Assembly (NCBI GenBank): GCA_018829245.1
Contig: JAHJUH010000067.1
Location: forward strand, 1-44,502
Direction of reading: 5' to 3'
DNA length: 44,502 nt
Origin: Patescibacteria group bacterium
Lineage (GTDB): Bacteria; Patescibacteriota; Minisyncoccia; Portnoybacterales; UBA2143
The translations under genes and the position numbers were made by a program. Under the pieces are notes generated by a model. It was not told the DNA's origin. It made no database searches and saw only the letters and a list, made by a program, of their open reading frames with translations. Shown in pieces: positions 3,838 to 43,143 of the stretch (its first letter is position 1; each line of letters begins with the position of its first letter).

Positions 3838-4476
3838 ATGAGACTCCCCAAAAAACAAAATGTTTCTACTAATAATCCTGAAAATCCATTACAACGCTAT
3901 TACCAACCATTTATCAGATACTTTTACATCGAAAGGTTAAAAATGGCCTTGAACTTTTTGAAACCTCAAGATAAACAATACGATAAAATTTTAGAAGTGG
4001 GTTATGGGAGTGGCGTATTTTTCCCGGAGCTGACAAAAATCTGCAAAAAACTCTATGGGTTAGAAGTTTTTCCTGAGGCAAAAAAAGAAACGGAACAAAT
4101 GATGGAAAAAGAGAATATTCAAGCAGAATTAACAACGGGAAGTGTCACACAAATGCCATTTGCTGATGATTTCTTTGATGCAATAGTATGTGTCAGCGCC
4201 TTAGAACATTTACAGCCAAATGAAATGGAAAAAGCTATTTCTGAAATTAAACGTGTCACCAAAAATAATGGTTTGATTATTTTAGGTTTTCCATCTGGCC
4301 GAAAGTTAATGCAACTTTATTGCATTTTAATAAAGCGTGATTTACATTTTGACTTTCATCGCTCTGACCATAATTTAATCCTAAAAACAATAACCAAAAA
4401 TTTTCCAATCCAAGAAACAAAAAAGCTCTTCAGCTTTCTGCCTATCTATTATGTAGTTAAATGTCAAAAAAAATGA
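3838..4476 (+). CDS. Class I SAM-dependent methyltransferase
   Basis: ILEVGYGSGVF (motif I), YGLEV, FDAIVCVSALEHL, NNGLIILGFP. Confidence 0.8.
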   Translation: MRLPKKQNVSTNNPENPLQRYYQPFIRYFYIERLKMALNFLKPQDKQYDKILEVGYGSGVFFPELTKICKKLYGLEVFPEAKKETEQMMEKENIQAELTTGSVTQMPFADDFFDAIVCVSALEHLQPNEMEKAISEIKRVTKNNGLIILGFPSGRKLMQLYCILIKRDLHFDFHRSDHNLILKTITKNFPIQETKKLFSFLPIYYVVKCQKK

Positions 4477-5465
4477 AAGAATCAATCGTCTCGTTTTTTT
4501 TATCCAAAATAGATATTAATAAGTTTTCTGATTTCATTAAAAGATCAGTGGTTTTATCTATTCCTTATAAAATAATTGTTCAAAGGTTAATCGATTGGAA
4601 TTTTCCATATCATGTTTTTCTTGAATCAACCAATATATGTAATTTACATTGCAAAATTTGTACAAGGAATATAGCGCCCATAAAACTTGGTTCTATGGAT
4701 TTTGAATTATTTAAAAAGATTGTGAATGAAGCTAGTGTCTATGGCTCCAGAAATTTTTCACTCCATCTTTTTGGCGAACCACTTTTAGCACCAAATATTA
4801 TTCCGATGATTAAATACATCAAACAGAAAAATAATAAAAATACTGTTTTAATCACTACAAATGGAGTATTACTTAATAATAAAATATCTCAAGAAATTAT
4901 TATGAATGGCGTAGACAAAATTATTGTCAGTATTCACGGCGCCAACAAAGAACAATATGAAAATATGACCGGTACTGATAATTTAAATAATGTTGAAGAA
5001 AACATTAAAAATCTAATTAATTTAAAAAACAAAAAGAATAAACCTAAAATATTTTTGCGAATGGTTAGTTTTAAAAAAAATACTACAGAAATAAAAAAAT
5101 TCTATAAAAGATGGTCATCTTATCCAGTTATTATAGACATTAAAGAACCACATAATTTTGGTGGACAAATTGAAACCGGACGCTCAATAGATAGCTTACC
5201 TAAAAGATACCCCTGTTATCACCTTTGGTTAGCCCCAGGAATTAATTGGGATGGACAGGTTTCGATTTGTTGCTGTGACACTTTTAAAGATGCGATTATC
5301 GGCAATGTTAATCAAAATAGCCTACATAAAATTTGGAATGGGGAAAAATTAAAACAATATCGCGATTATCATTTGAGAGGCAAATATGATAAAATTCCCG
5401 TATGTAAAAACTGCGATGTTTGGACAACTTATCCAGATATTTTCTTTGAATATCAAAAAAAATAA
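4461..5465 (+). CDS. Radical SAM protein with C-terminal SPASM-like Cys-rich domain
   Basis: The CNLHCKIC cluster motif follows FLESTNI. C-terminal cysteines are CYHLW, SICCCD and CKNCDVW. The alternative start ATG 4473 would give an ATGA overlap with the upstream TGA stop (4474-4476). Confidence 0.85.
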   Translation: MSKKMKESIVSFFLSKIDINKFSDFIKRSVVLSIPYKIIVQRLIDWNFPYHVFLESTNICNLHCKICTRNIAPIKLGSMDFELFKKIVNEASVYGSRNFSLHLFGEPLLAPNIIPMIKYIKQKNNKNTVLITTNGVLLNNKISQEIIMNGVDKIIVSIHGANKEQYENMTGTDNLNNVEENIKNLINLKNKKNKPKIFLRMVSFKKNTTEIKKFYKRWSSYPVIIDIKEPHNFGGQIETGRSIDSLPKRYPCYHLWLAPGINWDGQVSICCCDTFKDAIIGNVNQNSLHKIWNGEKLKQYRDYHLRGKYDKIPVCKNCDVWTTYPDIFFEYQKK

Positions 5466-6920: not shown

Positions 6921-7871
6921 ATGATTAAAAAGTATTCTTTTATTATAGGAATAATTATATTTCTACTGATTTTGAACAAATTAGGTTTTAGAGAAATGAT
7001 AGATATCTTGACTCAAGTAAATCTTTACTACTTCGGTCTAGCTACTTTCCTTCTTTTACCTATTCTCTTTATCAGAGCTTATCGTTGGAATTATCTTAAA
7101 AAAAAGCAGGGTATTATTTTTAGTCTTAAGGATTCTTTTTTAATTAATAATATTAGCATGATTATCGGCTTAGTTACTCCAGGACGATTGGGAGAACTAA
7201 CTAAAATATTATATTTAAAAAATAAAAATTATTCTATTGGAAAATCATTAGTCAGTGTTCTTCTTGATAGATTAGCTGATTTATTTTTCTTACTATTTTT
7301 TAGTTTAATAAGCCTTATTTTTTTCTTTTCTTATTTTAAAAAAACTATTCTGTTATTAGCTTTAATATTATCTCTTTTTATTCTTGTTTTTATCTTAATT
7401 TCAAAAAATAATCTCGTTCAAATTATTTTGAAAAAAATGTTGGGTTTAATCATCCCATCTAAATTTAAAAAATCATGGCTTTTAAATTACCATGATTTTT
7501 TAAAAAATCTTAAAATCTATACTTTAAACAATTATTTTTCGATTTTATTCATTACTGCTTTTTCTTGGTTAATATACTATTTCCAATCATTCCTTCTCCT
7601 TAAAAGTATTGGAATTAATAATATTCCTTTTTTTTATTTAGCTATAACTGTCACTATAGCTGGATTTGTTACTCTTTTACCTATTTCTATTTCTGGTCTT
7701 GGCACACGCGAAGCAACTCTAATCTTTTTCTTTTCATTTTTCCAAGTTCCCTTAGAAAAAACAATCGGTTTTTCTCTTTTGATTCTATCAACAATAGTAT
7801 CAACCGCTTTAATTGGATTAATTTGTTGGCTATTTAAGCAAGTTCATCAACCAACCCTTGTTACGAGATAA
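6921..7871 (+). CDS. UPF0104 / lysylphosphatidylglycerol-synthase TM-region-like (flippase-like) membrane protein
   Basis: About 8 predicted TM helices. Two repeated loop motifs (TPGRLGELTK and ISGLGTREAT) are characteristic of the MprF-flippase-like family often found next to GT2 genes. Confidence 0.6.
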   Translation: MIKKYSFIIGIIIFLLILNKLGFREMIDILTQVNLYYFGLATFLLLPILFIRAYRWNYLKKKQGIIFSLKDSFLINNISMIIGLVTPGRLGELTKILYLKNKNYSIGKSLVSVLLDRLADLFFLLFFSLISLIFFFSYFKKTILLLALILSLFILVFILISKNNLVQIILKKMLGLIIPSKFKKSWLLNYHDFLKNLKIYTLNNYFSILFITAFSWLIYYFQSFLLLKSIGINNIPFFYLAITVTIAGFVTLLPISISGLGTREATLIFFFSFFQVPLEKTIGFSLLILSTIVSTALIGLICWLFKQVHQPTLVTR

Positions 7872-29746: not shown

Positions 29747-30878
29747 TTCCTAAAATAAATCTTAAAATATTCCTGGCTCTTTTTTGCCAACTATACTTTT
29801 GGACATCTTCATAGGCCTGCACTGAGATTCTAACAGAAAAATCAGTGTTTTTCAACGCTCGCTCAATCCCTTTAGCTAGCTCTTGTGGATTGTCCGGCTC
29901 AACTAAAATCGCATTATTTTCACTTAGAACTTCTCTTAAAGACGGCAAATCTGAAGCAACAACTGGACGCCTAGAAGCCATATATTCGAACATTTTTAAA
30001 GGAGAAGTCCAACTTTTTGAAATATCCATCTTTCCTGAATTAGGTATAACTAAAACATCAGCTGATTTTAAATAACAAGGCATTTCTGAATAAGGTCGAT
30101 GTCCTAAAATTAGAATATTATTTAAATTTTTGTTCTTTTTCCTAAATTTTTCTAAATCCTCTTTTGTTCCACCAACAAAAACAATAAATATATCTTTATC
30201 TAAAAATTTAGAAGCATCGGCCAAGACTTGAACTCCCTTCCACTTATATAGATGACTATTAGTTAAAATAATTTTTTTATCTAAAGGTAATCCTAGTTTT
30301 TCTCTAGCTTCTTTTTTTGAAATATTTATATTAAATTTTTCTAGATCAACTCCATCTGGAGCAACTAAAATTTTATCTTTTTGAATCCCTTTTTTAATTA
30401 AAGTATTTTTTAAGATTTCAGTGATAACAATGATCTTATTAGCTTTTTCAAGAATTCTTTTATGTAAGAAAAAATTCTTTGGAAAAGTATGAATTTCATA
30501 AACAAAATTACTTTTGAAAAAACTTAATAAATATAAAGAAAAAGAATCACGAGAATAGATAAGATCCGCTTTTTTAAATAATAGATAAAAACTAGCTAAA
30601 AAGTAAAAAGAAAAAGCTTGAATCCAGGATCCCAAGGATCCCATAACTTTTTCCCAAGGTATCAAATCAAGAGAAAAAATCTTTTTAATTTGAAAAGAAC
30701 GATTAACATCATAATAAATAAAAGGGTCTATACTTTTAAGTAATCTATTAAATCTTTTAGCCACTATTAACTCAACCTCTGCTCTGTTCTTAACAAAGGC
30801 CTCACACATTTTCATAATTTGAATACCGTGCGCTTTTTCTGTCGGCATTCGCATATTAGTAATATAAATAATCTTCAT
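29739..30878 (-). CDS. GT4 (GT-B fold) glycosyltransferase
   Basis: SPLKMFEYMASRRPVVASD motif. The tracked ORF starts at GTG 30893. ATG 30878 (MKIIYITN) gives an ATGA overlap with the upstream TGA and a paralog-like N-terminus. Confidence 0.85.
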   Translation of the reverse strand: MKIIYITNMRMPTEKAHGIQIMKMCEAFVKNRAEVELIVAKRFNRLLKSIDPFIYYDVNRSFQIKKIFSLDLIPWEKVMGSLGSWIQAFSFYFLASFYLLFKKADLIYSRDSFSLYLLSFFKSNFVYEIHTFPKNFFLHKRILEKANKIIVITEILKNTLIKKGIQKDKILVAPDGVDLEKFNINISKKEAREKLGLPLDKKIILTNSHLYKWKGVQVLADASKFLDKDIFIVFVGGTKEDLEKFRKKNKNLNNILILGHRPYSEMPCYLKSADVLVIPNSGKMDISKSWTSPLKMFEYMASRRPVVASDLPSLREVLSENNAILVEPDNPQELAKGIERALKNTDFSVRISVQAYEDVQKYSWQKRARNILRFILGNE

Positions 30879-31963
30879 CCTAAACGACAACACCTTTTAC
30901 AAATAGGCGTTAAATTATTCTTTAATAAATCCAATCTTAATTTCTTAAATTTATTATTGTTCCAAATCTGGCTTAGTGGCTGCTCCAGTAAATTTCCTAA
31001 TTTAGTTTTAATAATCGGACAGAAAATAATATTCCCTTGAGCATCAACTCGGCAAGCAAATAAATCCTTACATCCTACATCTACATTTTCTCTCAAAGAC
31101 CCATTAAAATAGAATAAGGAGTGTCTATCATAAACTCGTGGTTGAATCATAAAGCTGATACCTTTAATACTTCTTACCTTTTTTAATAATTTTTCTATTT
31201 TCTGATGAGAAAAACTATATTGCGTTTCTTCTTTTTCTTCAGTACTAATATCCTCTAAGGGAATACTGAGAGCCCTACTAGACATTAATATTTCTTGAGG
31301 AGTAGAAAAGATTTCAAACTGCCAGGAAAAATTTTGAACACCCTGTTTCTTAAAAATATCAACTATTTCTAATAATTGATCTAAATTTTCCTTAAAAAGA
31401 ACTGTATTAATGCTAACACTAAAATCTTGAGATAACATTTTTAAAGCCTGAGCTGTTCTTTCAAAAGCTGTTTCTGAACCTCTAATCATATTATGTGTCT
31501 CAGGTAAACCATCTATAGAAACACCAATACCTCTAACTGTCTTTTTAAGTTTTTTTAATTTCTTAACTCTTTCCTCATTCAATAAAGTGGCGTTAGTAGA
31601 TAAATGAACTTTTATCTTTCTTCTCTGACATTCTTCTAAAATCTCAAAAATATCAGGATGAACAAAAATTTCTCCACCAATAAAAGAAAGATAATTAACA
31701 GATGGGCCTAAATTATCTAAAATCTTACAAAAATCTTTAAAACTATAATCCGTTTTGATCAGCTTTCGGTCTTCTTTCTGAGTACACATTTTGCAATTAA
31801 GATTGCATTTAAGAGTCAATTCTATAGTTGCTGTTTTGGGTAGCTCGATATTTCCATCAGAAGCCATTTCTTGCTTATTAAAATGATAACTAACTTGCCT
31901 CGCTTTTTGAGCGAATTTCCATAAACCTAATTTCTTTAATGTTTTTTTGATTAATAATCTCAT
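30875..31963 (-). CDS. Radical SAM protein with C-terminal SPASM-like Cys-rich domain
   Basis: Cluster motif CNLNCKMC following IELTLK. C-terminal cysteines are GCKDLFACRVD, IIFCP and PICKRCC. Confidence 0.85.
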   Translation of the reverse strand: MRLLIKKTLKKLGLWKFAQKARQVSYHFNKQEMASDGNIELPKTATIELTLKCNLNCKMCTQKEDRKLIKTDYSFKDFCKILDNLGPSVNYLSFIGGEIFVHPDIFEILEECQRRKIKVHLSTNATLLNEERVKKLKKLKKTVRGIGVSIDGLPETHNMIRGSETAFERTAQALKMLSQDFSVSINTVLFKENLDQLLEIVDIFKKQGVQNFSWQFEIFSTPQEILMSSRALSIPLEDISTEEKEETQYSFSHQKIEKLLKKVRSIKGISFMIQPRVYDRHSLFYFNGSLRENVDVGCKDLFACRVDAQGNIIFCPIIKTKLGNLLEQPLSQIWNNNKFKKLRLDLLKNNLTPICKRCCRLG

Positions 31964-37048: not shown

Positions 37049-38175
37049 ATTAGATCCTTCCAAAAACTAACTATTTTACCAATAATCTTTTCTTGATTGA
37101 ATCTTTCTTTAACCATTACTTTACCAGCTTGGGCTATTTCCTCAGCTTTATCTGGATTATTAAGTAAATAAAGAACCTTTTTAGCCAAAGCTTCGCTATC
37201 ACCAATCGGTACTAAAAATCCATTGACTCCATCTTTAATTACTTCCTTGGAACCAGTTGTCTCTGTAGCCACGACAGGAAGCCCAGAGGCCATAGCTTCG
37301 ACTAAAACCTTACCAAAGCTCTCTGAGCAAGAAGAAGAGACATAAACATCTGAAGCGTGATAATAGTTAATTAAATCTTCTTGTTTAATTTTTTTAACCG
37401 AATTTAAGATTAAATTATCATCCCCTTTAATTTTACCTGTTAAAGAGATATTAGCTCCTAATTGCCAAAAAGCAAGTTTTTTGTAGTCCTCATAAACTAA
37501 TTCAATCGTTTTATACAATGTCTTATAATCCTTAGAAGGATCTTTTCGTCCGACATTAATAATCGTTTTATGATTCTTATTCTTTAATCTTAACTTATTA
37601 ACTTTTTTCTCATCATATTTTTCAAATTTTTCTACATTAACTGGCGTTGGAATAACTCTAATTTTTTTATTAGGAACACCAACTTTGATTAATTTGTCTT
37701 TAATCCCAGAACTGACAACTCGAACTCCATCAGCTCCACTAACAACAAACTTACTTAATAAAAGAAAAAACCAATTAAACCACCAACGTCCTTTTTCAAA
37801 AAGCCAATATTTATTATTCCAAAAATCACCATGAAAATGGACTAACAAAGGAATCTTAAATCTTTTTTTAACAAACCAACCTGCTAATCCAGTTAAAAAG
37901 GGATCTTGGCAAACAATCAAATCATATTTATCTGGCCAATAAATTCTTTTAGCTATTTCAAAAGCATCAAGAATGTAATTTATCTTATTTTTTGAATTAG
38001 TTGGATGAACCTTTAGATTCTGACCAAATTCTTTCTTTTTAAAACCTTTTTTAGTAAAAACAATAATATCCAATTGCCCAGCTTCTTGAGCATATTTTTG
38101 ATGGCGTTCTAAAACATCGCCGCTATAATCGGCGCCTAATAAAGTCCTATCAATGCTAATCATTAAAATTCTCAT
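37045..38175 (-). CDS. GT4 (GT-B fold) glycosyltransferase
   Basis: SESFGKVLVEAMASGLPVVATETTGSKE and NGFLV. Confidence 0.85.
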   Translation of the reverse strand: MRILMISIDRTLLGADYSGDVLERHQKYAQEAGQLDIIVFTKKGFKKKEFGQNLKVHPTNSKNKINYILDAFEIAKRIYWPDKYDLIVCQDPFLTGLAGWFVKKRFKIPLLVHFHGDFWNNKYWLFEKGRWWFNWFFLLLSKFVVSGADGVRVVSSGIKDKLIKVGVPNKKIRVIPTPVNVEKFEKYDEKKVNKLRLKNKNHKTIINVGRKDPSKDYKTLYKTIELVYEDYKKLAFWQLGANISLTGKIKGDDNLILNSVKKIKQEDLINYYHASDVYVSSSCSESFGKVLVEAMASGLPVVATETTGSKEVIKDGVNGFLVPIGDSEALAKKVLYLLNNPDKAEEIAQAGKVMVKERFNQEKIIGKIVSFWKDLI

Positions 38176-39656
38176 GTTTTTGTGACAAACCTTTTAGCTA
38201 ATTTATAATCCCAAGGAAGCCAGAAACATTTCATTTTCCATCTTAACTGACATAATAATACAAAAAAAAGTTTTAAAAGCTTATTTACTTTAATGGTTGA
38301 ACCCATAGCACTTTCGATTGAATGAGCTCCAAATCTGACATAGGCCTCTAATGATTCTATAAACCCAGGGTTATCAAGCCAAGGAAATTTACTGATATCT
38401 AAATAATTTAATTCATCTTTAACTGTTTCTCCCCACTGATCTAGTGATTCAGGTTCTTGCCAGCCCACGGCTAAGCATTCTTTGTAAAGTTCTGAACCAG
38501 GATAAGGTCTAAAAGCCTGAGGCCCTAAAATTTGAACCTGATCGCCTAATTTAACTAACTCATCAATTAATTCTAATGTTTCCATTACTTCACTTCTAGT
38601 TTCGCCCGGTAAACCAGCCATAAAGGAATATTGGGGAATAATTCCATACTTTAAACACATCTTAGCTGAATTGATTACATCTTCGGGCATAATGTCTTTC
38701 TTAATTTTTTTTAAAATACGAGGACAACCTGATTCTGCACCAAAAGACAGTAGATAGCAACCAGATTCTTTTAACTTTTTAATAAATTCTTCATCAATTA
38801 TTCCTTCTCTTAAATAATTAGCCCGAACAGTTGTTTCCCAGGGTGTAATTAAATCTTCTTCTATCATTCCATTAATAATCTGTTTAGCTCTTTTAATATC
38901 AACAAAAAAGTTTTCATCCCAAAAACGAAGTTTTTTTGCTTTCCCGCCCTGAAAGGGCGAGGTCTCGCCTTTGGCGGAAAAATATTCTTTGTTTTTTATT
39001 ATCCTTATATCTTCTAGAACTTGCTCAGCTGTTCTTGTCCGCCAATGGTTTTTAAGAATAGCGTTGATACAAAAAGTACAGCGATGAGGACAACCTCGAG
39101 AAGTTAAAGAAGGAATTAAATGAAGATTTTCTAAAATTTCTTTAGGCACTAACTCCCAATTAAAAAGAGGCATTTGAGCTGGATCATGTAATTCTCGTGG
39201 TTGGTTAATAATAACCTCATCTCCTGATTGATAGGCAATCCCTTTAATATCATTTAGAGATTTACCATTAACAATATCCAACATAGTTAACTCACCTTCG
39301 CCATAACAGACCATATCAATCAAAAAATGACTAGCTGTTTGTTTAATAAAGAAACTCGGGTGAGGACCACCCCAAATAACCTGACAATCAGAGTTATTTT
39401 CTTTAACTAAACGAGATAATTCTAGGGCCTCTGGAATTTGTGTCGTCATAACTGAAATTCCGACATAATCACAATCTTTAACTTTTTCTTTAACTAAATC
39501 TAAATAATTTTTCTGCCTGACCCCGTCAATGATCTCCACCTTAATATTATAAAAATCTAAATATGTAGCAATACTTAATAATCCAACGGAAATAGAGCTA
39601 TCGTAATTCTCCTTATTAATATTAAAAGCCGGATTGATTAGTAAAACTTTAGACAT
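38172..39656 (-). CDS. B12-binding domain radical SAM protein (class B), paralog R6, carrying a 15-codon GC-rich insert
   Basis: MSKVLLINPA, YVGISVM, VIWGGPHPS, VCYGEGE. Cluster motif GCPHRCTFC. The tracked ORF starts at 39671, but ATG 39656 matches the paralog N-termini. The insert SAKGETSPFQGGKAK lies at 38934-38978. Confidence 0.9.
   Translation of the reverse strand: MSKVLLINPAFNINKENYDSSISVGLLSIATYLDFYNIKVEIIDGVRQKNYLDLVKEKVKDCDYVGISVMTTQIPEALELSRLVKENNSDCQVIWGGPHPSFFIKQTASHFLIDMVCYGEGELTMLDIVNGKSLNDIKGIAYQSGDEVIINQPRELHDPAQMPLFNWELVPKEILENLHLIPSLTSRGCPHRCTFCINAILKNHWRTRTAEQVLEDIRIIKNKEYFSAKGETSPFQGGKAKKLRFWDENFFVDIKRAKQIINGMIEEDLITPWETTVRANYLREGIIDEEFIKKLKESGCYLLSFGAESGCPRILKKIKKDIMPEDVINSAKMCLKYGIIPQYSFMAGLPGETRSEVMETLELIDELVKLGDQVQILGPQAFRPYPGSELYKECLAVGWQEPESLDQWGETVKDELNYLDISKFPWLDNPGFIESLEAYVRFGAHSIESAMGSTIKVNKLLKLFFVLLCQLRWKMKCFWLPWDYKLAKRFVTKT
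38943..38977. repeat. GC-rich multi-hairpin element E1 embedded in frame in radical SAM gene R6
   Basis: CCCGCCCTGAAAGGGCGAGGTCTCGCCTTTGGCGG. CGCCCT pairs with AGGGCG, GGCGAG with CTCGCC, and CGCC with GGCG. GC content is far above the flanking A/T runs. Confidence 0.6.
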
Positions 39657-39657
39657 A

Positions 39658-40818
39658 TTACAAATTCTCAAAAATCATTACTGTTTCTTTAACTAGATCG
39701 TCCCAAGAAAATCTTTTTAAATCTTCCTTGGCATTACTAACCAATCGATTAGCTAGTTCTTGATCATCTAGAATTCGACTAATCGCTTTAAACCATTGTC
39801 CTTTATCCCGATAATCAACTAATAATCCCGTTTGACCGTTTTTAATTGTCTCTAGATTACCACCAGCTTTAGTGGTGATAACAGGTATCCCCACCTTCAT
39901 GGCCTCCAAAATAACAAAGGACATTCCTTCATAATTTGTATTTAAAACAAAAACATCAGCCATTTTTAAATAAGCAACAACTAATTGACGGCTAATCCGA
40001 CCAACAAAAAAAACATTTTCCTCTACATCTAAATCAAGAACTAATTTTTCTAAATTCTTCCTTTCTGGACCCTCGCTAATAATGACGAATTTAATATCTC
40101 CATATTTCTCAATAAGTCGAGGCATAATTTTGATCAACATATCAACACCCTTCCAAGGGGTTAAGCGAGCATTAGTTAGAATAACTCGTCCAGAAATATT
40201 AAGTTCTTTTTTTAAATCTACTTTCAAATCATCGTTTAAATCTAAAAAATCAACTGAGTTGTAAATTACTTTAATTTTCTCCTCGGCTACCCCAATTTTT
40301 TGAGCTAAATCTTTAAGAAAATTACTGACAACAATGACTTTATCAGAATTAAGTAAAATCTTTTTTCTAATTTTTTTACGCTTTTCAATTAAATGAGAGT
40401 ATTGCTTATCCTGAAAAGTTAAAATATCATCTGTAGTTATTCCCTGACTTAAAGCCGTTTCCCAAGCTGAATCACCAACAAACCTAGTCACCAACTTCTT
40501 ACCCAAAAATCTTTTGATCAATAGGGCGGTTAAGCCAGCTGTATATAAATCCTGGTTGTAAATAATATCTGATTTTAAAGCCAACCAAAAACCTTTGATT
40601 AAATAAAGAAAACTTTTTAAAAAAGAAGGCCATTTATCAGAAATAACTTTAACTGAATAAGGATATTTTTTTGCTTCATTTTTATTACCGAAAGTTAAAA
40701 CAGTTACCTGATAACCACGTTCAATAAGATCTTTATTAAGCTCCTTTAATAAGGTTGGTGGTCCACCAACTCCTTTTAAGAAAACTCCAGTTAAAATTAG
40801 AATTCTATTATTTCTCAT
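39658..40818 (-). CDS. GT4 (GT-B fold) glycosyltransferase
   Basis: GVGGPPT near the N-terminus, YEGMSFVILEAMKVGIPVITTKAGGNLE, GLLV. Confidence 0.85.
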   Translation of the reverse strand: MRNNRILILTGVFLKGVGGPPTLLKELNKDLIERGYQVTVLTFGNKNEAKKYPYSVKVISDKWPSFLKSFLYLIKGFWLALKSDIIYNQDLYTAGLTALLIKRFLGKKLVTRFVGDSAWETALSQGITTDDILTFQDKQYSHLIEKRKKIRKKILLNSDKVIVVSNFLKDLAQKIGVAEEKIKVIYNSVDFLDLNDDLKVDLKKELNISGRVILTNARLTPWKGVDMLIKIMPRLIEKYGDIKFVIISEGPERKNLEKLVLDLDVEENVFFVGRISRQLVVAYLKMADVFVLNTNYEGMSFVILEAMKVGIPVITTKAGGNLETIKNGQTGLLVDYRDKGQWFKAISRILDDQELANRLVSNAKEDLKRFSWDDLVKETVMIFENL

Positions 40819-41933
40819 AATTTATTGAAAATATTTTCCATCTTTTGAGCAACGCTATCCCAAGTATATTTTTCCCTAACTAGATTTAACCCATTATTGA
40901 TTAATGTTTCCCTAAGTTCATCATTCCCTAAAATTTCTTTAATCTTTTCGGCAATATCTTGAGGATTATTTACCTCACAAAACAAACCTGTTTTTCTGTC
41001 TTCCAAGAAATCAACTATTCCACCCACGGGCGTAGCGATAATTGGCACTCCAGCCGCCATTGCCTCTAGAAAAGAAATGCCTAGACCCTCAGATAAAGAA
41101 GCTCGAACAAAAACATCGGCTGAAGAATAGTATTTTGCTAAATCTCTATGATTAATCTCCCCTTCAAAAACAACTTTATCTTCAAGATTTAATTTTTTGG
41201 TTAAATTCTTTAACTCTTTTTCTTGTTCTCCACTTCCAATAATTATAATTTTAAATAAAAAATCTAAATATTGTCCGGCTTTAATTAAATCAGCTACGCC
41301 ATTTTTCTTGACTAGGCGAGAGACAGTTAAGATTTTGAGGTCCGACCTTTGCAAAGGTCGGACCTCAAAATCTGATCTAAATACATCTAAATCAACTCCA
41401 TTAGGGACAACTTTGATGGGACATTTTGCTCCCATATTTTTAGCCCAATTAGATAAAAAATTGCTAATCGCCTGGATATAGTCAGTTTGCTTAAAAATCT
41501 GATAAAACCAGTATTTAAAAATACCAACTTTTTTTAAAATTTCTTCTGGAGGATCACCTTCTTGGAGGGTTAATAGCCATGGTATATGAGGAAATTTTTT
41601 CTTAAAACGTAAACCTAAAAACCCACCGAAAGAGGCCATAATAGACCAAACTAGCTTATAATCTCTTTTTTTATTTAAACTTATTGCCTTTTTTAGACCT
41701 AGAAAAGGCAAGAGATATTTATCGAAATTAGAACCAAAACCAACCCGGTAAACATTAATATTATTAATTTTCTCTTCTTCTTTTAACTCTTTCTGTATTT
41801 TGGCTGTGATCATATCAAACTCAAAACCCTCAATTCGGTCTGTTATTTCCTTAACAGCCACTTCTGCCCCACCTATTAAAGGAAAATAAGCCGTAGAAAA
41901 AATTAAAACTTTTGGCACTTGATTATTGGCCAT
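40815..41933 (-). CDS. GT4 (GT-B fold) glycosyltransferase containing a perfect 44-bp palindrome in its interdomain linker
   Basis: IGGAEVAV near the N-terminus, SEGLGISFLEAMAAGVPIIATPVGGIVD. The palindrome at 41330-41373 encodes DFEVRPLQRSDLKI. Confidence 0.85.
   Translation of the reverse strand: MANNQVPKVLIFSTAYFPLIGGAEVAVKEITDRIEGFEFDMITAKIQKELKEEEKINNINVYRVGFGSNFDKYLLPFLGLKKAISLNKKRDYKLVWSIMASFGGFLGLRFKKKFPHIPWLLTLQEGDPPEEILKKVGIFKYWFYQIFKQTDYIQAISNFLSNWAKNMGAKCPIKVVPNGVDLDVFRSDFEVRPLQRSDLKILTVSRLVKKNGVADLIKAGQYLDFLFKIIIIGSGEQEKELKNLTKKLNLEDKVVFEGEINHRDLAKYYSSADVFVRASLSEGLGISFLEAMAAGVPIIATPVGGIVDFLEDRKTGLFCEVNNPQDIAEKIKEILGNDELRETLINNGLNLVREKYTWDSVAQKMENIFNKL
41330..41373. repeat. Perfect 44-bp palindrome E2 (22+22, no loop) inside a GT4 coding sequence
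   Basis: AGATTTTGAGGTCCGACCTTTG|CAAAGGTCGGACCTCAAAATCT. I verified it base by base as its own reverse complement. Confidence 0.9.
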
Positions 41934-41955
41934 ATATGCTTTAATATACTATAAA
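41934..41955. promoter_or_regulatory. 22-bp divergent intergenic region with face-to-face -10-like boxes; candidate leaderless starts
   Basis: ATATGCTTTAATATACTATAAA. On the plus strand TATACT ends 5 nt before ATG 41956. On the minus strand TATATT ends 9 nt before ATG 41933. Neither start has a Shine-Dalgarno. AT-rich sequence makes chance matches likely. Confidence 0.3.
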
Positions 41956-43143
41956 ATGACTAAAAATTCAACTTGCCTCGCCGAAGCAAGGCGTAGGCGG
42001 GTTCTATACATAATTACTAAATCTGTCTGGGGCGGGGCTGCTAAGTACGTCTATGACCTCTCAACTAACCTAATGAGTGGGTTTGATGTGGCTATAGCTG
42101 CTGGCCTGCCTCGTAGCAAGGCGGGTGGACAGGGTCAATTTTATAAAGAGGTAAAAAAAACCAATATCCCCTATTATCAAATCACCAATTTCCAACGAAC
42201 TATTAATCCCTTTAAGGATTTGTTCGCTTTTTTTGAGATTTTAAGCCTCCTTTTCCAGCTAAAGCCAGATATCATCCATGTTAATAGTTCTAAAGCCGGT
42301 GGTATTGTTGGTTTAGCTGGTTTGATTTATAAAGTATTTTATAATAAAGAAATTAAACTTGTTTTTACCGCTCATGGTTGGGCTTTTAATGAAGATCGTC
42401 CTCAATGGCAAATTAGTCTAATTAAATTCTTTAGCAAAGTAACTTCTTTATTTTATGACAAAATAATTTGTGTTTCTGAATATGATCGCCAAATGGCTCT
42501 TAAATATAAAATCGCGCCAGAAAGAAAATTAATTACTATTCATAATGGCATAGATATTAAAAATATTAATTTTCTTTCTAAAGAACAAGCTCAAAAAAAA
42601 TTAATCGGTCGAGAATCTCCTTTACTTATCGGCACAATTGCTGAATGGACTAAGAATAAAGGATTAATTTATTTAATTAAAGCGACTCAGATCCTCGAAT
42701 TAAAAGAAAAAGAATTTGATGTTATTCTCATCGGTAGCGGAGAAAATCCAGATAAAGAAAAAATGTATGATTATGATAAAAAATATAACTTGGATAATGT
42801 CCGCTTAATTGAATTTATGCCTGAGGCAATTAAGTATCTTAAAGGGTTTAATATCTTCATTCTTCCATCTCTTAAAGAAGGATTACCTTATACGATCATT
42901 GAAGCCATGGCCGCTCAGCTACCTATTATTGCCACTAATGTTGGTGGTATTCCAGAAATGATAGAGAATAATATTAATGGTATTTTAATAGAACCAAAAA
43001 ATCCCGATTTAATCGGGGAAAAAATTACTTATCTAATTAACAATCCAGAAAAAGCTCAAGTTATGGCTCAAAAAGCCAGACAAAAAGCAGAACAAAAATT
43101 CAGTTTGAATAAGATGATAGAAAAAACAAAAAAGCTATATTAA
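41956..43143 (+). CDS. GT4 (GT-B fold) glycosyltransferase with two GC-rich motif copies in its 5' region
   Basis: VLYIITKSVWGGAAKYVYDL N-terminal strand, NSSKAGG, KEGLPYTIIEAMAAQLPIIATNVGGIPE. The tracked ORF uses TTG 41926, which would overlap the divergent gene start. ATG 41956 is preferred. Confidence 0.8.
   Translation: MTKNSTCLAEARRRRVLYIITKSVWGGAAKYVYDLSTNLMSGFDVAIAAGLPRSKAGGQGQFYKEVKKTNIPYYQITNFQRTINPFKDLFAFFEILSLLFQLKPDIIHVNSSKAGGIVGLAGLIYKVFYNKEIKLVFTAHGWAFNEDRPQWQISLIKFFSKVTSLFYDKIICVSEYDRQMALKYKIAPERKLITIHNGIDIKNINFLSKEQAQKKLIGRESPLLIGTIAEWTKNKGLIYLIKATQILELKEKEFDVILIGSGENPDKEKMYDYDKKYNLDNVRLIEFMPEAIKYLKGFNIFILPSLKEGLPYTIIEAMAAQLPIIATNVGGIPEMIENNINGILIEPKNPDLIGEKITYLINNPEKAQVMAQKARQKAEQKFSLNKMIEKTKKLY
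41972..42001. repeat. GC-rich hairpin element E3 at the 5' end of a GT4 coding sequence
   Basis: CTTGCCTCGCCGAAGCAAGGCGTAGGCGGG. GCCTCGCC pairs with GGCG(T)AGGC around a 7-nt loop. It shares TGCCTCG and AGCAAGGCG with E4. Confidence 0.7.
42103..42128. repeat. GC-rich hairpin element E4, a second copy of the E3 core in another reading frame
   Basis: GGCCTGCCTCGTAGCAAGGCGGGTGG. CCTGCCT pairs with AGGCGGG (one G-T) around a 7-nt loop. Core TGCCTCG-N1-AGCAAGGCG compares with TGCCTCG-N4-AGCAAGGCG in E3. Confidence 0.7.

What the first reader, a model, noticed from the sequence alone, without database searches (positions are those of the whole stretch)
38934..38978. A 45-nt GC-rich hairpin cassette is inserted in frame into one of seven paralogous radical SAM genes
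Seen directly: between the cluster motif and the conserved DDNF strand, six paralogs have about 8-9 residues after the E-I helix:
- R1 EERLKMGIEEIFIYDDTF
- R2 EECINKYNIKEFSILDDNF
- R3 RDFKKEYNFKHFKIDDDTF
- R4 KFLIETQKIKEVAFWDDNF
- R7 ELLVTKYGVKEIHIEDDNF
- R5 similar

R6 instead reads RIIKNKEYF-SAKGETSPFQGGKAK-KLRFWDENF, which is 15 extra codons. Those codons coincide exactly with the GC-rich block CCCGCCCTGAAAGGGCGAGGTCTCGCCTTTGGCGG. That block contains three mutually exclusive short stems.

Because the paralogs serve as internal controls, this is the clearest case that these elements are insertions that preserve the reading frame.
Basis: partly seen in the sequence, partly recalled or inferred. 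Interest (0 to 1): 0.65.

Follow-up and report, generated by a model that had tools for sequence, protein, structure and literature searches.

The report
Mobile double-hairpin repeat inside a gene
A 36-base GC-rich, hairpin-forming repeat has landed in frame in a surface loop of a radical SAM enzyme gene, adding 12 flexible amino acids without breaking it; it is one copy of a very widespread and apparently undescribed family of miniature repeats in uncultured bacteria.

Summary
The insert is 36 nt (12 codons, window 38943-38978, coding strand TCCGCCAAAGGCGAGACCTCGCCCTTTCAGGGCGGG = SAKGETSPFQGG), not 45 nt; the codons for KAK are native.

- **Empty sites:** 112 of the 120 best-matching orthologs, including the closest, read TATTTT|AAAGG.
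- **Filled sites:** eight scattered orthologs carry related GC-rich elements at exactly this nucleotide, with no target duplication.
- **Canonical family:** the element is a dispersed double-hairpin repeat, 30 nt in its canonical form, [TCCGCC-NNN-GGCGGA]x2.
- **Window-type subfamily:** 33-36 nt with centre GGCGAGACCTCGCC.
- **Spread:** both scans hit their 120-locus limit. The canonical form occurs in MAGs labelled Patescibacteria and in at least 12 other groups (phylum- to family-level labels).
- **Target:** canonical copies sit in TTY|RAA sites, mostly without target duplication.
- **Reading frame:** inside long ORFs, 44 of 49 canonical copies are in the one frame that reads SAxGGSAxGG. Target sites are about equally frequent in two frames, so the insert is evidently translated and selected for tolerance.
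- **Structure:** compensatory changes preserve the two local hairpins.
- **Protein context:** the insert maps to a disordered helix-to-strand loop.

The mobilising enzyme is unknown. I rate it a new variant of the REP/RPE kind of intragenic palindromic repeat.

The parts
38943..38978 (-). The inserted element: 36 nt, coding strand TCCGCCAAAGGCGAGACCTCGCCCTTTCAGGGCGGG, translated SAKGETSPFQGG. It is a member of the window-type subfamily with centre GGCGAGACCTCGCC.
   Evidence: It is absent from the closest orthologs L005 and L006, with a clean 36-nt difference. The same architecture occurs in at least 99 distinct copies elsewhere.
38966..38976 (-). Left (5' on the coding strand) hairpin unit, CGCC-AAA-GGCG.
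   Evidence: (0 of 100 shuffles contain this unit).
38956..38969 (-). Central palindrome GGCGAG-AC-CTCGCC, the signature of the subfamily. It competes with both flanking hairpins.
38945..38959 (-). Right (3' on the coding strand) hairpin unit, CGCCC-TTTCA-GGGCG.
   Evidence: The same unusual loop occurs in another 0.34-GC contig, L248.
38979..38982 (-). Left half of the target site: TTTT on the coding strand (the end of TAT TTT, Tyr-Phe).
   Evidence: The empty site is TATTTT|AAAGG in L005 and L006. The flank logo of 122 canonical copies has T at -4 to -1.
38940..38942 (-). Right half of the target site: AAA on the coding strand (a native Lys codon).
38172..39656 (-). Host gene R6: a B12-binding radical SAM protein of 494 aa counted from the ATG (P0001). 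The insert is residues 227-238.
   Evidence: Pfam PF02310 and PF04055, orthologs and the AlphaFold model.
41337..41366 (.). A second, unrelated 30-nt perfect palindrome, GAGGTCCGACCTTTGCAAAGGTCGGACCTC. It is in frame (EVRPLQRSDL) in glycosyltransferase 40815-41933 (-) and flanked by TTTT|AAAA.
   Evidence: (z = -11.3), (also present in orthologs P0121, P0124 and P0174; symmetric double change in strain L214).
41971..42000 (+). A 30-nt GC-rich hairpin insert (TCLAEARRRR as read in the long ORF) at the 5' end of glycosyltransferase 41926-43143. It is absent from the L005 ortholog.
   Evidence: A terminator-like call on the - strand covers 41990-41972.
42106..42126 (+). A 21-nt GC-rich in-frame insert, CTGCCTCGTAGCAAGGCGGGT (LPRSKAG), in the same glycosyltransferase. 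It is absent from both L005 and L006.

Best explanation
The block is one copy of a family of very short (30-36 nt), GC-rich, double-hairpin dispersed repeats. These are REP/RPE-like miniature mobile elements that occur in many uncultured bacterial lineages.

What happened here:
- After the lineage split from its nearest sequenced relatives, a copy of the subfamily with centre GGCGAGACCTCGCC entered the R6 gene.
- It went in between TTT and AAA of the Phe-Lys codon pair, without duplicating the target.
- The element is a multiple of three long and has no stop codon. In this frame it encodes a Ser/Ala/Gly-rich stretch.
- The site is a helix-to-strand loop, so the gene stays open and the insert is translated as 12 extra, probably disordered, residues.

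Why the same site recurs in other lineages: it is the only TTT|AAA in the gene whose junction falls on a codon boundary, and it lies in a permissive loop.

Shown:
- It is an insertion.
- It belongs to a repeat family.
- Canonical copies prefer TTY|RAA sites and mostly lack a target duplication.
- Copies in ORFs are strongly biased to one reading frame.
- The two local hairpins are conserved.

Inferred:
- An enzyme supplied in trans, not yet identified, mobilises the element by recognising the hairpins. This may happen on single-stranded DNA, in the manner of HUH/Y1 transposases, which also leave no target duplication.
- The insert is selectively near-neutral 'selfish' DNA rather than an adaptation of R6.
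For: Insertion:
- 112 of 120 orthologs are empty, and the closest ones read TATTTT|AAAGG.
- Eight filled orthologs each have an empty nearest neighbour in an NJ tree.
- At least two different subfamilies occupy the same nucleotide position, and the canonical type shows several left/right half variants there.
- Of 11 internal indels among the 120 orthologs, 8 are at this site.

Family:
- The canonical pattern hit the 120-locus limit in species-representative genomes, giving 125 copies. Of the first 80 loci, 38 are Patescibacteria and 34 carry at least 12 other group labels.
- The window-type pattern also hit the 120-locus limit in metagenomes. There are 99 distinct copies below 0.62 GC, 84 of them 33 or 36 nt long.
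- Contigs in runs X5 and X9 match only 38940-38980, and L248 matches 38943-38980 with one mismatch.

Target:
- The flank logo reads T .57, T .87, Y, T .96 | core | A .98, R, A .79, A .61.
- 98 of 122 copies have no flanking direct repeat.

Translation and selection:
- Of 49 copies in long ORFs, 44 are in the frame that reads SAxGGSAxGG.
- TTT|AAA sites in long ORFs split 172:213 between the two possible frames. The binomial tail for 44 of 47 is 1e-12.
- Only 39-54% of copies are in or at the edge of ORFs.
- In R6, only the F|K site of 5-8 TTTAAA sites has its junction on a codon boundary.

Structure of the element:
- Loops vary freely, and the loops of the two halves are independent: 24 of 122 are complementary.
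- Double changes that keep Watson-Crick pairs number 7 under the two-hairpin model and 1 under the single long hairpin model.

Protein:
- The AlphaFold model has mean pLDDT 84.9. The insert is coil with pLDDT below 50 at residues 229-240, between helix 210-227 and strand 244-247.

Not an artefact:
- The filled allele sits in 100%-identical contigs from six runs of five studies.
- Relatives about 87% identical, carrying the empty site, occur in the same samples.

Not a terminator or a known RNA.
Against: - No mobilising gene was found or could be sought, because no whole genomes or annotation were available.
- There is no filled/empty polymorphism among close relatives. The 97.2%-identical strain L214 carries the same insert, so current mobility is not shown.
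- The 44.5-kb window holds only this one copy of the family.
- The tree cannot separate repeated gain from gain followed by many precise excisions. Five filled orthologs share the unusual left half TTCGCC/GGCGAA (TTTGCC in L249, GGTGAA in L250), which could mean common descent or allele transfer.
- No RNA or protein data cover the gene, so translation is inferred from the frame bias.
- All carriers are metagenome-assembled genomes. PLSDB plasmids and INPHARED phages hold no copy.
- The compensatory-change sample is small: 18 imperfect copies and about three independent events.
- The TTY|RAA preference is shown for the canonical form only. Window-type copies in higher-GC contigs have other flanks, G-T-C ... 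G-G-Y.
Confidence: 0.8

Rival explanations
1. The loop is ancestral to the R6 family and has been lost precisely many times. The window simply retains it.
For: - Five filled orthologs in four tree positions share the derived left half TTCGCC-AAA-GGCGAA (TTTGCC in L249, GGTGAA in L250), and six of eight share the AAA loop.
- Precise, footprint-free excision is known for single-strand (IS200/IS605-type) transposition (own knowledge).
Against: - It would need well over a dozen independent exact deletions, with no flanking direct repeat to drive them.
- The window copy belongs to a different subfamily (centre GAGACCTC rather than GGATCC), which has more than 100 copies elsewhere.
- The paralogs and 112 of 120 orthologs lack the loop.
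- Even under this model the sequence is still a dispersed-repeat copy.
Confidence: 0.07
2. The cassette is kept because it does something useful. It might act as an mRNA hairpin that tunes translation, folding or stability, as a DNA site for a binding protein, or as a useful flexible linker. On this view it is not a near-neutral selfish insert.
For: - Hairpins are conserved through compensatory changes.
- Deviations at the R6 site in L249 and L250 are G-T wobbles, allowed only on the sense strand.
- The window-type subfamily keeps a conserved T...G at positions -2/+2.
- REPs have documented roles in mRNA stability and gyrase binding, as reviewed in PMC3733652.
Against: - 93% of orthologs do without it.
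- Copies sit in unrelated genes and in intergenic DNA across many phyla.
- Coding copies of the window-type subfamily occur in both orientations, 24 sense and 16 antisense.
- The insert is predicted to be disordered, in a helix-to-strand connection that by (beta/alpha)-barrel topology (inference) lies on the face away from the cluster-binding face.
- Hairpin conservation is equally expected if a transposase must recognise the hairpins.
Confidence: 0.12
3. The element is not transposed by a dedicated enzyme. It is captured as filler DNA when a blunt double-strand break at TTT|AAA is repaired; DraI-type restriction enzymes cut exactly there (own knowledge). Excised or self-annealed palindromic fragments would be ligated in.
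For: - The target is a symmetric hexamer split in the middle, and there is no target duplication.
- The inserts are palindromic, so a single strand can form a blunt duplex.
- Nested and tandem copies exist: L003, L033 and L238.
Against: - Nothing explains why one specific 30-nt sequence, with the same stems in many phyla, would be the filler.
- Positions -2 and +2 of the target are degenerate, so many sites are not TTTAAA.
- Window-type copies in GC-richer genomes lack T/A flanks.
- No restriction-system link was tested.
Confidence: 0.08
4. The insert is removed before the protein is made, or is skipped: an intron-like RNA, a translational bypass ('byp'-like) element, or an intein-like peptide.
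For: GC-rich hairpin inserts of 27-55 nt in AT-rich mitochondrial genes of Magnusiomyces are bypassed by ribosomes (own knowledge). No RNA data here exclude processing.
Against: - Removal would make frame and length irrelevant. Yet 44 of 49 coding copies share one frame, and 84 of 99 window-type copies are multiples of three.
- No Rfam family matches.
- Twelve residues are far too few for an intein.
Confidence: 0.03
5. The insert is an assembly or sequencing artefact, or contamination by a synthetic linker.
For: All carriers are MAGs. The canonical centre GGATCC is a BamHI site, which is common in synthetic linkers.
Against: - The same filled allele was assembled independently in six runs from five studies, 2018-2025, and in JGI, ENA and Logan assemblies.
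- Copies carry mutations, compensatory changes and variable loops.
- Copies show precise in-frame placement and a frame bias that no artefact would produce.
Confidence: 0.01

Closest known systems
Rickettsia palindromic elements (RPE; Ogata et al. 2000, cited as refs 13-14 in PMC3733652)
   Same: - Short palindromic repeats that insert in frame into protein-coding genes of an AT-rich, compact genome.
- They leave the ORFs intact and are translated as extra surface peptides.
- Several families co-exist in one genome.
   Different: - RPE-1 is about 100-150 bp, and RPEs are described in Rickettsia (own knowledge).
- This element is 30-36 nt and is built of two 15-nt GC-only hairpins.
- It occurs in Patescibacteria and many other phyla with the same stems, and has a TTY|RAA target.
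- No sequence relation to RPEs was tested.
REP / BIME / REPIN elements, including intragenic GTAG- and CGTC-tagged REPs (Di Nocera et al. 2013, PMC3733652)
   Same: - Palindromic units of 20-40 bp, dispersed in many copies and often paired in inverted orientation.
- Sometimes mosaic with other motifs (L012 here).
- Occasionally inside ORFs, encoding 20-30 aa as dimers.
- No target duplication reported.
   Different: - The GTAG or CGTC head, the 8-9 bp stems beginning with A-T pairs, the 4-5 nt loops and the CCA tail are all absent.
- The units here abut directly with no spacer.
- No RAYT link is known.
Mitochondrial GC clusters (yeast GC42, PMC4478555) and double-hairpin elements of Allomyces (Paquin et al. 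2000, cited there)
   Same: - GC-rich elements of about 30-45 nt in very AT-rich genomes.
- A folded (for the Allomyces elements, two-hairpin) structure conserved, with substitutions concentrated in loops.
- Tandem and merged copies occur.
- The mobilising machinery is unknown.
   Different: - They are organellar.
- GC42 duplicates an AG target dinucleotide, whereas these elements mostly leave no duplication.
- They lie mostly in intergenic DNA, and no reading-frame bias is described.
IS200/IS605-type single-strand 'peel and paste' transposition and its PATE/REP derivatives (own knowledge)
   Same: - Works-like only: hairpins are the recognised feature.
- Insertion and excision leave no duplication or footprint.
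- Conserved imperfections in hairpins give strand specificity; compare the conserved T...G of the window-type subfamily.
   Different: - Those elements insert on one side of an asymmetric 4-5 nt target and have distinct left and right ends.
- The canonical element here is fully symmetric and sits in the middle of a symmetric target.
- No TnpA or RAYT gene has been tied to it.
MITEs (for example Correia/NEMIS, RUP, Nezha)
   Same: Non-autonomous, short, inverted-repeat DNA that can sit in or next to genes.
   Different: MITEs are 70-300+ bp with terminal inverted repeats and a target-site duplication. Neither the size nor the duplication is met here.

Membership tests
Rickettsia palindromic elements (RPE) | A palindromic repeat inserted in frame into ORFs that stay open, with orthologs lacking it | tested here: met
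   Empty and filled orthologs at DNA level. 44 canonical copies lie in frame in long ORFs.
Rickettsia palindromic elements (RPE) | Size and host of the described families (about 100-150 bp for RPE-1; Rickettsia) | tested here: not met
   The element is 36 nt here and 30-33 nt in typical copies. Hosts are Patescibacteria and other phyla.
Rickettsia palindromic elements (RPE) | Sequence similarity to an RPE consensus | not tested
REP / REPIN (GTAG- or CGTC-tagged) | An imperfect palindrome of 20-40 bp present in many dispersed copies, often as inverted dimers | tested here: met
   Both scans reached their 120-locus limit. The element is an inverted dimer of 15-nt units.
REP / REPIN (GTAG- or CGTC-tagged) | A GTAG or CGTC head, with the stem, loop and tail layout of Di Nocera et al. 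(stems 8-9 bp starting with A-T pairs, loops 4-5 nt, CCA tail for CGTC) | tested here: not met
   Canonical flanks are TTYT...ARAA with 6-bp GC stems and 3-nt loops. The window-type has G(.60)T(.96)C(.91) before CGCC, but 4-6 bp GC stems and no CCA tail.
REP / REPIN (GTAG- or CGTC-tagged) | An associated RAYT (Y1 transposase) gene flanked by the repeats | not testable with these tools
   Only 8-kb unannotated stretches of MAGs were held, with no whole genomes. One two-copy locus (L012) holds unrelated ORFs between the copies.
MITE | A target-site duplication flanking terminal inverted repeats | tested here: not met
   The R6 site shows clean +30 and +36 nt differences. 98 of 122 copies have no flanking direct repeat; 15 have repeats of 5-8 nt against 2.7 expected, mostly in tandem-repeat contexts.
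MITE | Length of roughly 70-300+ bp | tested here: not met
   30-36 nt.
Organellar GC clusters / double-hairpin elements | A GC-rich two-hairpin unit dispersed in an AT-rich genome, with variation concentrated in loops | tested here: met
   The loops are highly variable. Compensatory stem changes number 7 under the two-hairpin model against 1 under the long-hairpin model. The element is 0.69 GC in a 0.33-GC gene.
Organellar GC clusters / double-hairpin elements | A mitochondrial host and, for yeast GC42, duplication of an AG target | tested here: not met
   The hosts are bacterial MAGs, and there is no duplication.
Intron / translational-bypass element / intein | Removed from RNA or protein, so any reading frame and length is tolerated | tested here: not met
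   44 of 49 coding copies share one frame, although target sites split 172:213 between frames (p = 1e-12). 84 of 99 window-type copies are multiples of three. There is no direct RNA or protein test.
Intron / translational-bypass element / intein | A match to a known ribozyme or intron RNA family | tested here: not met
   No Rfam hit near any gathering score.
Intrinsic transcription terminator | A GC hairpin followed by a U-run on the transcribed strand | tested here: not met
   No terminator-like call falls at 38943-38978 on either strand. T-runs precede the hairpins and A-runs follow them in both orientations.
IS200/IS605-type single-strand transposition (works-like, not membership) | Hairpin-bearing ends and insertion without target duplication | tested here: met
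IS200/IS605-type single-strand transposition (works-like, not membership) | An asymmetric target on one side only, distinct left and right ends, and a cognate Y1 transposase | tested here: inconclusive
   The canonical element and its target are symmetric. The window-type subfamily is asymmetric, with a conserved T...G. The transposase could not be sought.

The most novel reading that the evidence does not exclude
These 30-36-nt double hairpins would be a previously unrecognised, pan-bacterial class of minimal mobile DNA, among the shortest known. Their features would be:
- stems identical across at least a dozen phyla of uncultured bacteria;
- movement by a not-yet-identified hairpin-recognising enzyme into TTY|RAA sites, leaving no duplication;
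- long-term shaping (multiple-of-three length, no stop codons, a Gly/Ser/Ala-rich reading) to survive inside genes of gene-dense genomes.

In effect they would be a natural 'flexible linker cassette' that marks permissive loops in proteins.
Probability: 0.35. Interest if true: 0.85.

Novelty: new variant of a known kind. Interest (0 to 1): 0.68.

Why it matters
**Annotation.** CPR/Patescibacteria and other uncultured lineages carry in-frame GC-rich micro-insertions that inflate apparent protein diversity. These can be mistaken for lineage-specific loops. Recognising the family allows them to be masked or used as markers.

**Mobile-DNA biology.**
- An element of only 30 nt keeps the same stems across many phyla.
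- It shows a strong reading-frame bias and a symmetric target without duplication.
- This poses a clear, testable question: what enzyme moves it, and how does it cross phylum boundaries?

**Protein engineering.** Recurrent natural insertion of SAxGGSAxGG or SAxGETSPxGG maps permissive sites in enzymes. Here the site is the helix-to-strand loop after the cluster-binding motif of a class B radical SAM enzyme.

**Evolution.** It extends the 'selfish DNA inside genes' phenomenon, known from Rickettsia and organelles, to the largest uncultured bacterial radiation.

Tried and rejected
- **Known RNA family:** an Rfam search of the region, and of the second copy's context in L248, found nothing.
- **Terminator:** no call at the element.
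- **Phage or plasmid vector:** the canonical pattern has only 2 hits in 2.9 million viral contigs. The window-type pattern and the 41337 palindrome have none. There is no match in PLSDB plasmids or INPHARED phages.
- **RNA evidence:** three metatranscriptomes from the same study hold no contig on the gene.
- **Transposon between paired copies:** the two copies 1.8 kb apart in L012 are part of a roughly 185-nt composite repeat. The ORFs between them did not stand out and were not searched against protein families.
- **CGTC-tagged REP membership:** considered because G-T-C precedes many window-type copies. Rejected on stem, loop and tail layout.
- **Single long hairpin as the conserved structure:** rejected in favour of two local hairpins.
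- **Literature:** exact element and peptide strings, and combinations of REP/RPE terms with CPR terms, found no description. Only open-access text was searched.
- **Solved homolog:** the HMMER alignment to 9ccb placed the insert against a native strand region. I treated this as unreliable and used the ortholog alignment and the AlphaFold model instead.
- **Single 15-nt units:** many isolated CCGCC-NNN-GGCGG hairpins have flanks that extend the stem or a T-run on the opposite strand. They are therefore not reliable family members.
Full report
**1. Observation**

The window is about 30% GC and looks like a Patescibacteria (CPR) glycosylation cluster from groundwater. It has seven B12-binding radical SAM paralogs.

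R6 is the ORF at 38172-39671 on the minus strand. It has Pfam B12-binding and Radical_SAM domains. On the coding strand it reads TCC GCC AAA GGC GAG ACC TCG CCC TTT CAG GGC GGG AAA GCA AAA, which is S A K G E T S P F Q G G K A K.

- A 30-nt sliding scan shows 0.67 GC here, one of the highest values in the window.
- The hairpin unit CGCCNNNGGCG occurs in none of 100 shuffles of the window.
- The coding strand folds better than shuffles: DNA z = -3.1, RNA z = -2.2.
- An alignment with five paralogs gives 14 extra residues in R6 at this point.

**2. It is an insertion, and it is 36 nt**

A protein search returned 2,226 relatives. I aligned the best 120. In 112 of them the sequence runs ...EYF-KGKKLRFWDENF with nothing in between. 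That includes the two closest, at 84-87% amino-acid identity.

Their DNA (L005, L006; 83-84% nucleotide identity) reads GAATATTTT|AAAGGCAAG. The window reads GAATATTTT|TCCGCC...GGCGGG|AAAGCAAAA. The difference is therefore exactly 36 nt (38943-38978).

**3. The same nucleotide position is filled in other lineages**

Eight of the 120 orthologs carry an insert at this exact position. Their DNA is as follows:

| Locus | Insert |
|---|---|
| L001 | TCCGCCCGAGGCGGATCCGCCTCGGGCGGA (a perfect 30-nt palindrome) |
| L002 | TCCTCCCAAGGCGGATCCGCCTCGGGCGGA |
| L004 and L251 | TTCGCCAAAGGCGAATCCGCCTCTGGAGGA |
| L249 | TTTGCCAAAGGCGAATCCGCCTCGGGCGGA |
| L250 | TTCGCCAAAGGTGAATCCGCCTCAGGCGGA |
| L003 | the L004 type with a second, roughly 33-nt copy nested at its centre |

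- In an NJ tree, each filled sequence has an empty nearest neighbour.
- Of 11 internal indels among the 120 proteins, 8 are at this site.
- At least two independent insertions are certain, because the window copy belongs to a different subfamily from the others.
- The exact number of gains cannot be settled here, since gains cannot be separated from precise losses. Five copies share the left half TTCGCC/GGCGAA, which may reflect common descent or allele transfer.

**4. The family**

The canonical unit is two abutting 15-nt hairpins, [TCCGCC-NNN-GGCGGA] twice, with GGATCC at the centre.

- A scan of one genome per species with CCGCCNNNGGCGGATCCGCCNNNGGCGG stopped at its 120-locus limit and gave 125 copies.
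- All carriers are metagenome-assembled genomes.
- Of the first 80 loci, 38 are Patescibacteria of many classes. Another 34 carry other labels: Omnitrophota, Kiritimatiellae, Verrucomicrobiota, Lentisphaerae, Planctomycetales, Ignavibacteria, Bacteroidota, Chloroflexota/Dehalococcoidia, Firestonebacteria, Desulfotomaculaceae, Deltaproteobacteria and 'Gammaproteobacteria'.

The window's variant has the centre GGCGAG-AC-CTCGCC.

- A metagenome scan for that architecture also stopped at 120 loci.
- After removing GC-rich contigs, where chance matches are likely, 99 distinct copies remain.
- Their consensus is (G)TCCGCC-NNN-GGCGAGACCTCGCC-NNNN-GGCGGG. Seventy are 33 nt long and 14 are 36 nt.
- In the sense frame they read SAxGETSPxGG. 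The window copy, SAKGETSPFQGG, is a typical member with one extra loop codon.
- L248 is another 0.34-GC contig with the same unusual loop and one mismatch over 38 nt.
- Contigs in two groundwater runs match only 38940-38980.
- Within the 44.5-kb window there is only this one copy.

**5. Target and absence of duplication**

For 122 canonical copies the flanks are T(.57) T(.87) Y T(.96) | core | A(.98) R A(.79) A(.61). The 30-nt unit therefore sits in TTY|RAA.

- Ninety-eight copies have no flanking direct repeat.
- Fifteen have repeats of 5-8 nt against 2.7 expected, mostly in tandem-repeat surroundings such as L068-L070.
- Because the T-run precedes the hairpins and the A-run follows them on both strands, the element never forms a terminator. 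The terminator scan indeed calls none here.
- Window-type copies in GC-richer contigs do not show T/A flanks. The target rule is therefore firm only for the canonical form and for this site.

**6. Reading frame: evidence for translation and selection**

- Of 49 canonical copies inside long ORFs, 44 start on codon position 1 and read SAxGGSAxGG. Three read FPPxADPPxAE and two read the Arg-rich frame.
- None of the three frames has a stop codon, unless a loop happens to supply one, so ORF detection does not favour one frame.
- TTT|AAA sites in ORFs of at least 300 codons split 172:213 between the two possible frames. The probability of 44 or more out of 47 is 1e-12.
- Only 39-54% of copies are in or at the edge of ORFs. 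These genomes are mostly coding, so this suggests under-representation in genes.
- The peptide is always encoded by the same GC-rich codons, even in AT-rich genomes. What is conserved is therefore the DNA or RNA, not the protein.

Together these points argue that the insert is translated and that unfavourable frames are purged. The same logic explains the R6 hot spot. The empty R6 genes have 5-8 TTTAAA sites, but only the Phe|Lys site has its junction on a codon boundary.

**7. Conserved structure**

- The loops are the variable part. The loops of the two halves are independent of each other: 24 of 122 are complementary, about what chance would give.
- Among 18 imperfect canonical copies, changes on both sides of a pair that keep Watson-Crick pairing number 7 under the two-local-hairpins model and 1 under the single long hairpin model. 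Examples are TCGGCC/GGCCGA, TCAGCC/GGCTGA and TTCGCC/GGCGAA.
- The conserved object is therefore a double hairpin.
- In the window copy the left and right hairpins can coexist. The central palindrome competes with both.

**8. Not an artefact**

- The filled allele is in 100%-identical contigs from six runs in five studies.
- In the same samples, relatives about 87% identical carry the empty site. Their loose end reads GCCTTTAAAATATTCTCTGG.
- A 97.2%-identical strain (L214) has the identical insert.

**9. Protein context**

- An AlphaFold model built on 60 orthologs has mean pLDDT 84.9.
- The insert is residues 227-238 of P0001. Residues 229-240 have pLDDT below 50 and are coil, between helix 210-227 and strand 244-247 (RFWD).
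- In (beta/alpha) radical SAM barrels, helix-to-strand connections lie on the face opposite the cluster and SAM site. This is an inference from the fold, not something measured here.
- The nearest solved relative is 9ccb, at E = 3e-25.

**10. Mechanism**

Shown:
- insertion of a copy of a dispersed repeat;
- a symmetric A/T target, with no duplication;
- conservation of the two hairpins;
- selection on the reading frame.

Inferred:
- The element is mobilised in trans by an unidentified enzyme that recognises the hairpins.
- Single-strand HUH/Y1-type transposition is the best-known process that leaves neither duplication nor footprint. The conserved T...G in the asymmetric window-type subfamily hints at a strand-specific, single-stranded intermediate.
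- The canonical element's full symmetry does not fit the asymmetric ends of IS200/IS605 elements.
- Capture at blunt TTT|AAA breaks is an alternative.

No transposase could be sought with the data at hand. No polymorphism among close strains was seen, so current activity is unproven.

**11. Comparison with known systems**

The kind is known.
- Rickettsia RPEs and intragenic GTAG/CGTC REPs are palindromic repeats found in frame inside genes (PMC3733652).
- Yeast mitochondrial GC42 and the Allomyces double-hairpin elements are GC-rich hairpin elements in AT-rich genomes (PMC4478555).

This family fails the defining features of each: tags and stem layout, size, target duplication, or host. I therefore treat it as a new variant, not a member. 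Searches of open-access text for the element and peptide strings, and for REP/RPE terms combined with CPR terms, found no description. Subscription literature was not searched.

**12.

Among the syntenic genes shared with L005 and L006, indels of at least 4 codons are mostly GC-rich, at 0.50-0.69 in genes of 0.33 GC.
- The neighbouring glycosyltransferase carries an unrelated 30-nt perfect palindrome. It is in frame, flanked by TTTT|AAAA, and also seen in three other orthologs.
- In strain L214 both ends of that palindrome have changed symmetrically. Of all possible two-change outcomes, 1.1% are such a compensated pair.

Noticed in passing
window 41337-41366 (glycosyltransferase 40815-41933, minus strand): A perfect 30-nt palindrome, GAGGTCCGACCTTTGCAAAGGTCGGACCTC, lies in frame (EVRPLQRSDL) and is flanked by TTTT|AAAA. 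It sits in a stretch that varies in length and sequence among orthologs, between the GT4 and GT1 Pfam matches (DNA fold z = -11.3). The same element is at the same place in orthologs P0121, P0124 and P0174, and other orthologs carry different GC-type inserts there. In the 97%-identical strain L214 both ends changed symmetrically (G>A and C>T), which keeps the palindrome. It has no hits in viral contigs.
   Followed up: partly
window 41971-42000 and 42106-42126 (glycosyltransferase 41926-43143, plus strand): Two more GC-rich in-frame inserts (30 nt TCLAEARRRR and 21 nt LPRSKAG) share the core TGCCTCG..AGCAAGGCG and are absent from the L005 and/or L006 orthologs. L006 has a related 21-nt insert (GCTTTGCCTCAGCAAAGGCGA) in the same gene. 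The first overlaps a terminator-like hairpin on the minus strand (41990-41972) and may lie upstream of the true start codon.
   Followed up: partly
L006 6273-6290, with 12 other loci (for example L039, L066, L236, L243): An 18-nt insert, CCTTCGACAAACTCAGGA (PSTNSG), lies in the L006 ortholog of the window's glycosyltransferase. It belongs to another motif, CCTTCGACAAGCTCAGG(A/G)C, that recurs in unrelated contigs from several phyla. This suggests further cross-phylum GC-rich repeat families.
   Followed up: no
L012 4569-4752 and 6390-6572 (Kiritimatiellae MAG); also L009, L035, L059: The canonical 30-nt element is embedded in a composite repeat of about 185 nt, together with other hairpin modules (read as ...ERSEE... 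and ...LRSGQA...). This resembles the mosaic BIME organisation of E. coli REPs.
   Followed up: partly
L238 5678-5900; L033 about 7415-7480; L003 1358-1420: Tandem arrays occur: period 36 running into a contig end in L238, chained half-units in L033, and a copy nested in the centre of another copy in L003. The units can therefore amplify locally or target each other.
   Followed up: no
L068 about 2440-2520, L069 about 7470-7560, L070 about 7340-7410: A minority of canonical copies are flanked by direct repeats of 7-16 nt (for example AGATTGAAGATTAAGAT on both sides in L068). No simple model explains this. The repeats may be variable-length duplications or insertions into short tandem repeats.
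   Followed up: partly
L002 1915-4853 and L250 2311-2682: Small genes with the 23S_rRNA_IVP (four-helix-bundle) Pfam family are interspersed between glycosylation genes in related clusters, three of them in L002. They look like another kind of inserted selfish or defence-related gene.
   Followed up: no
window 1640-44502 (whole cluster): The window holds seven B12-binding radical SAM paralogs and two further radical SAM genes (4461-5465, 30875-31963). They sit among many GT4/GT2 glycosyltransferases, methyltransferases and large membrane proteins with no family assigned here. This is an unusually radical-SAM-rich glycan cluster, conserved in synteny in L001, L002, L005 and L006.
   Followed up: no
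L248 2670-2900: The second copy of the window-type element (one mismatch) sits inside a GC-rich, multi-hairpin stretch of an otherwise 0.34-GC contig. No convincing ORF spans it and no Rfam family matches. It may be an unannotated structured RNA or a cluster of different hairpin repeats.
   Followed up: partly
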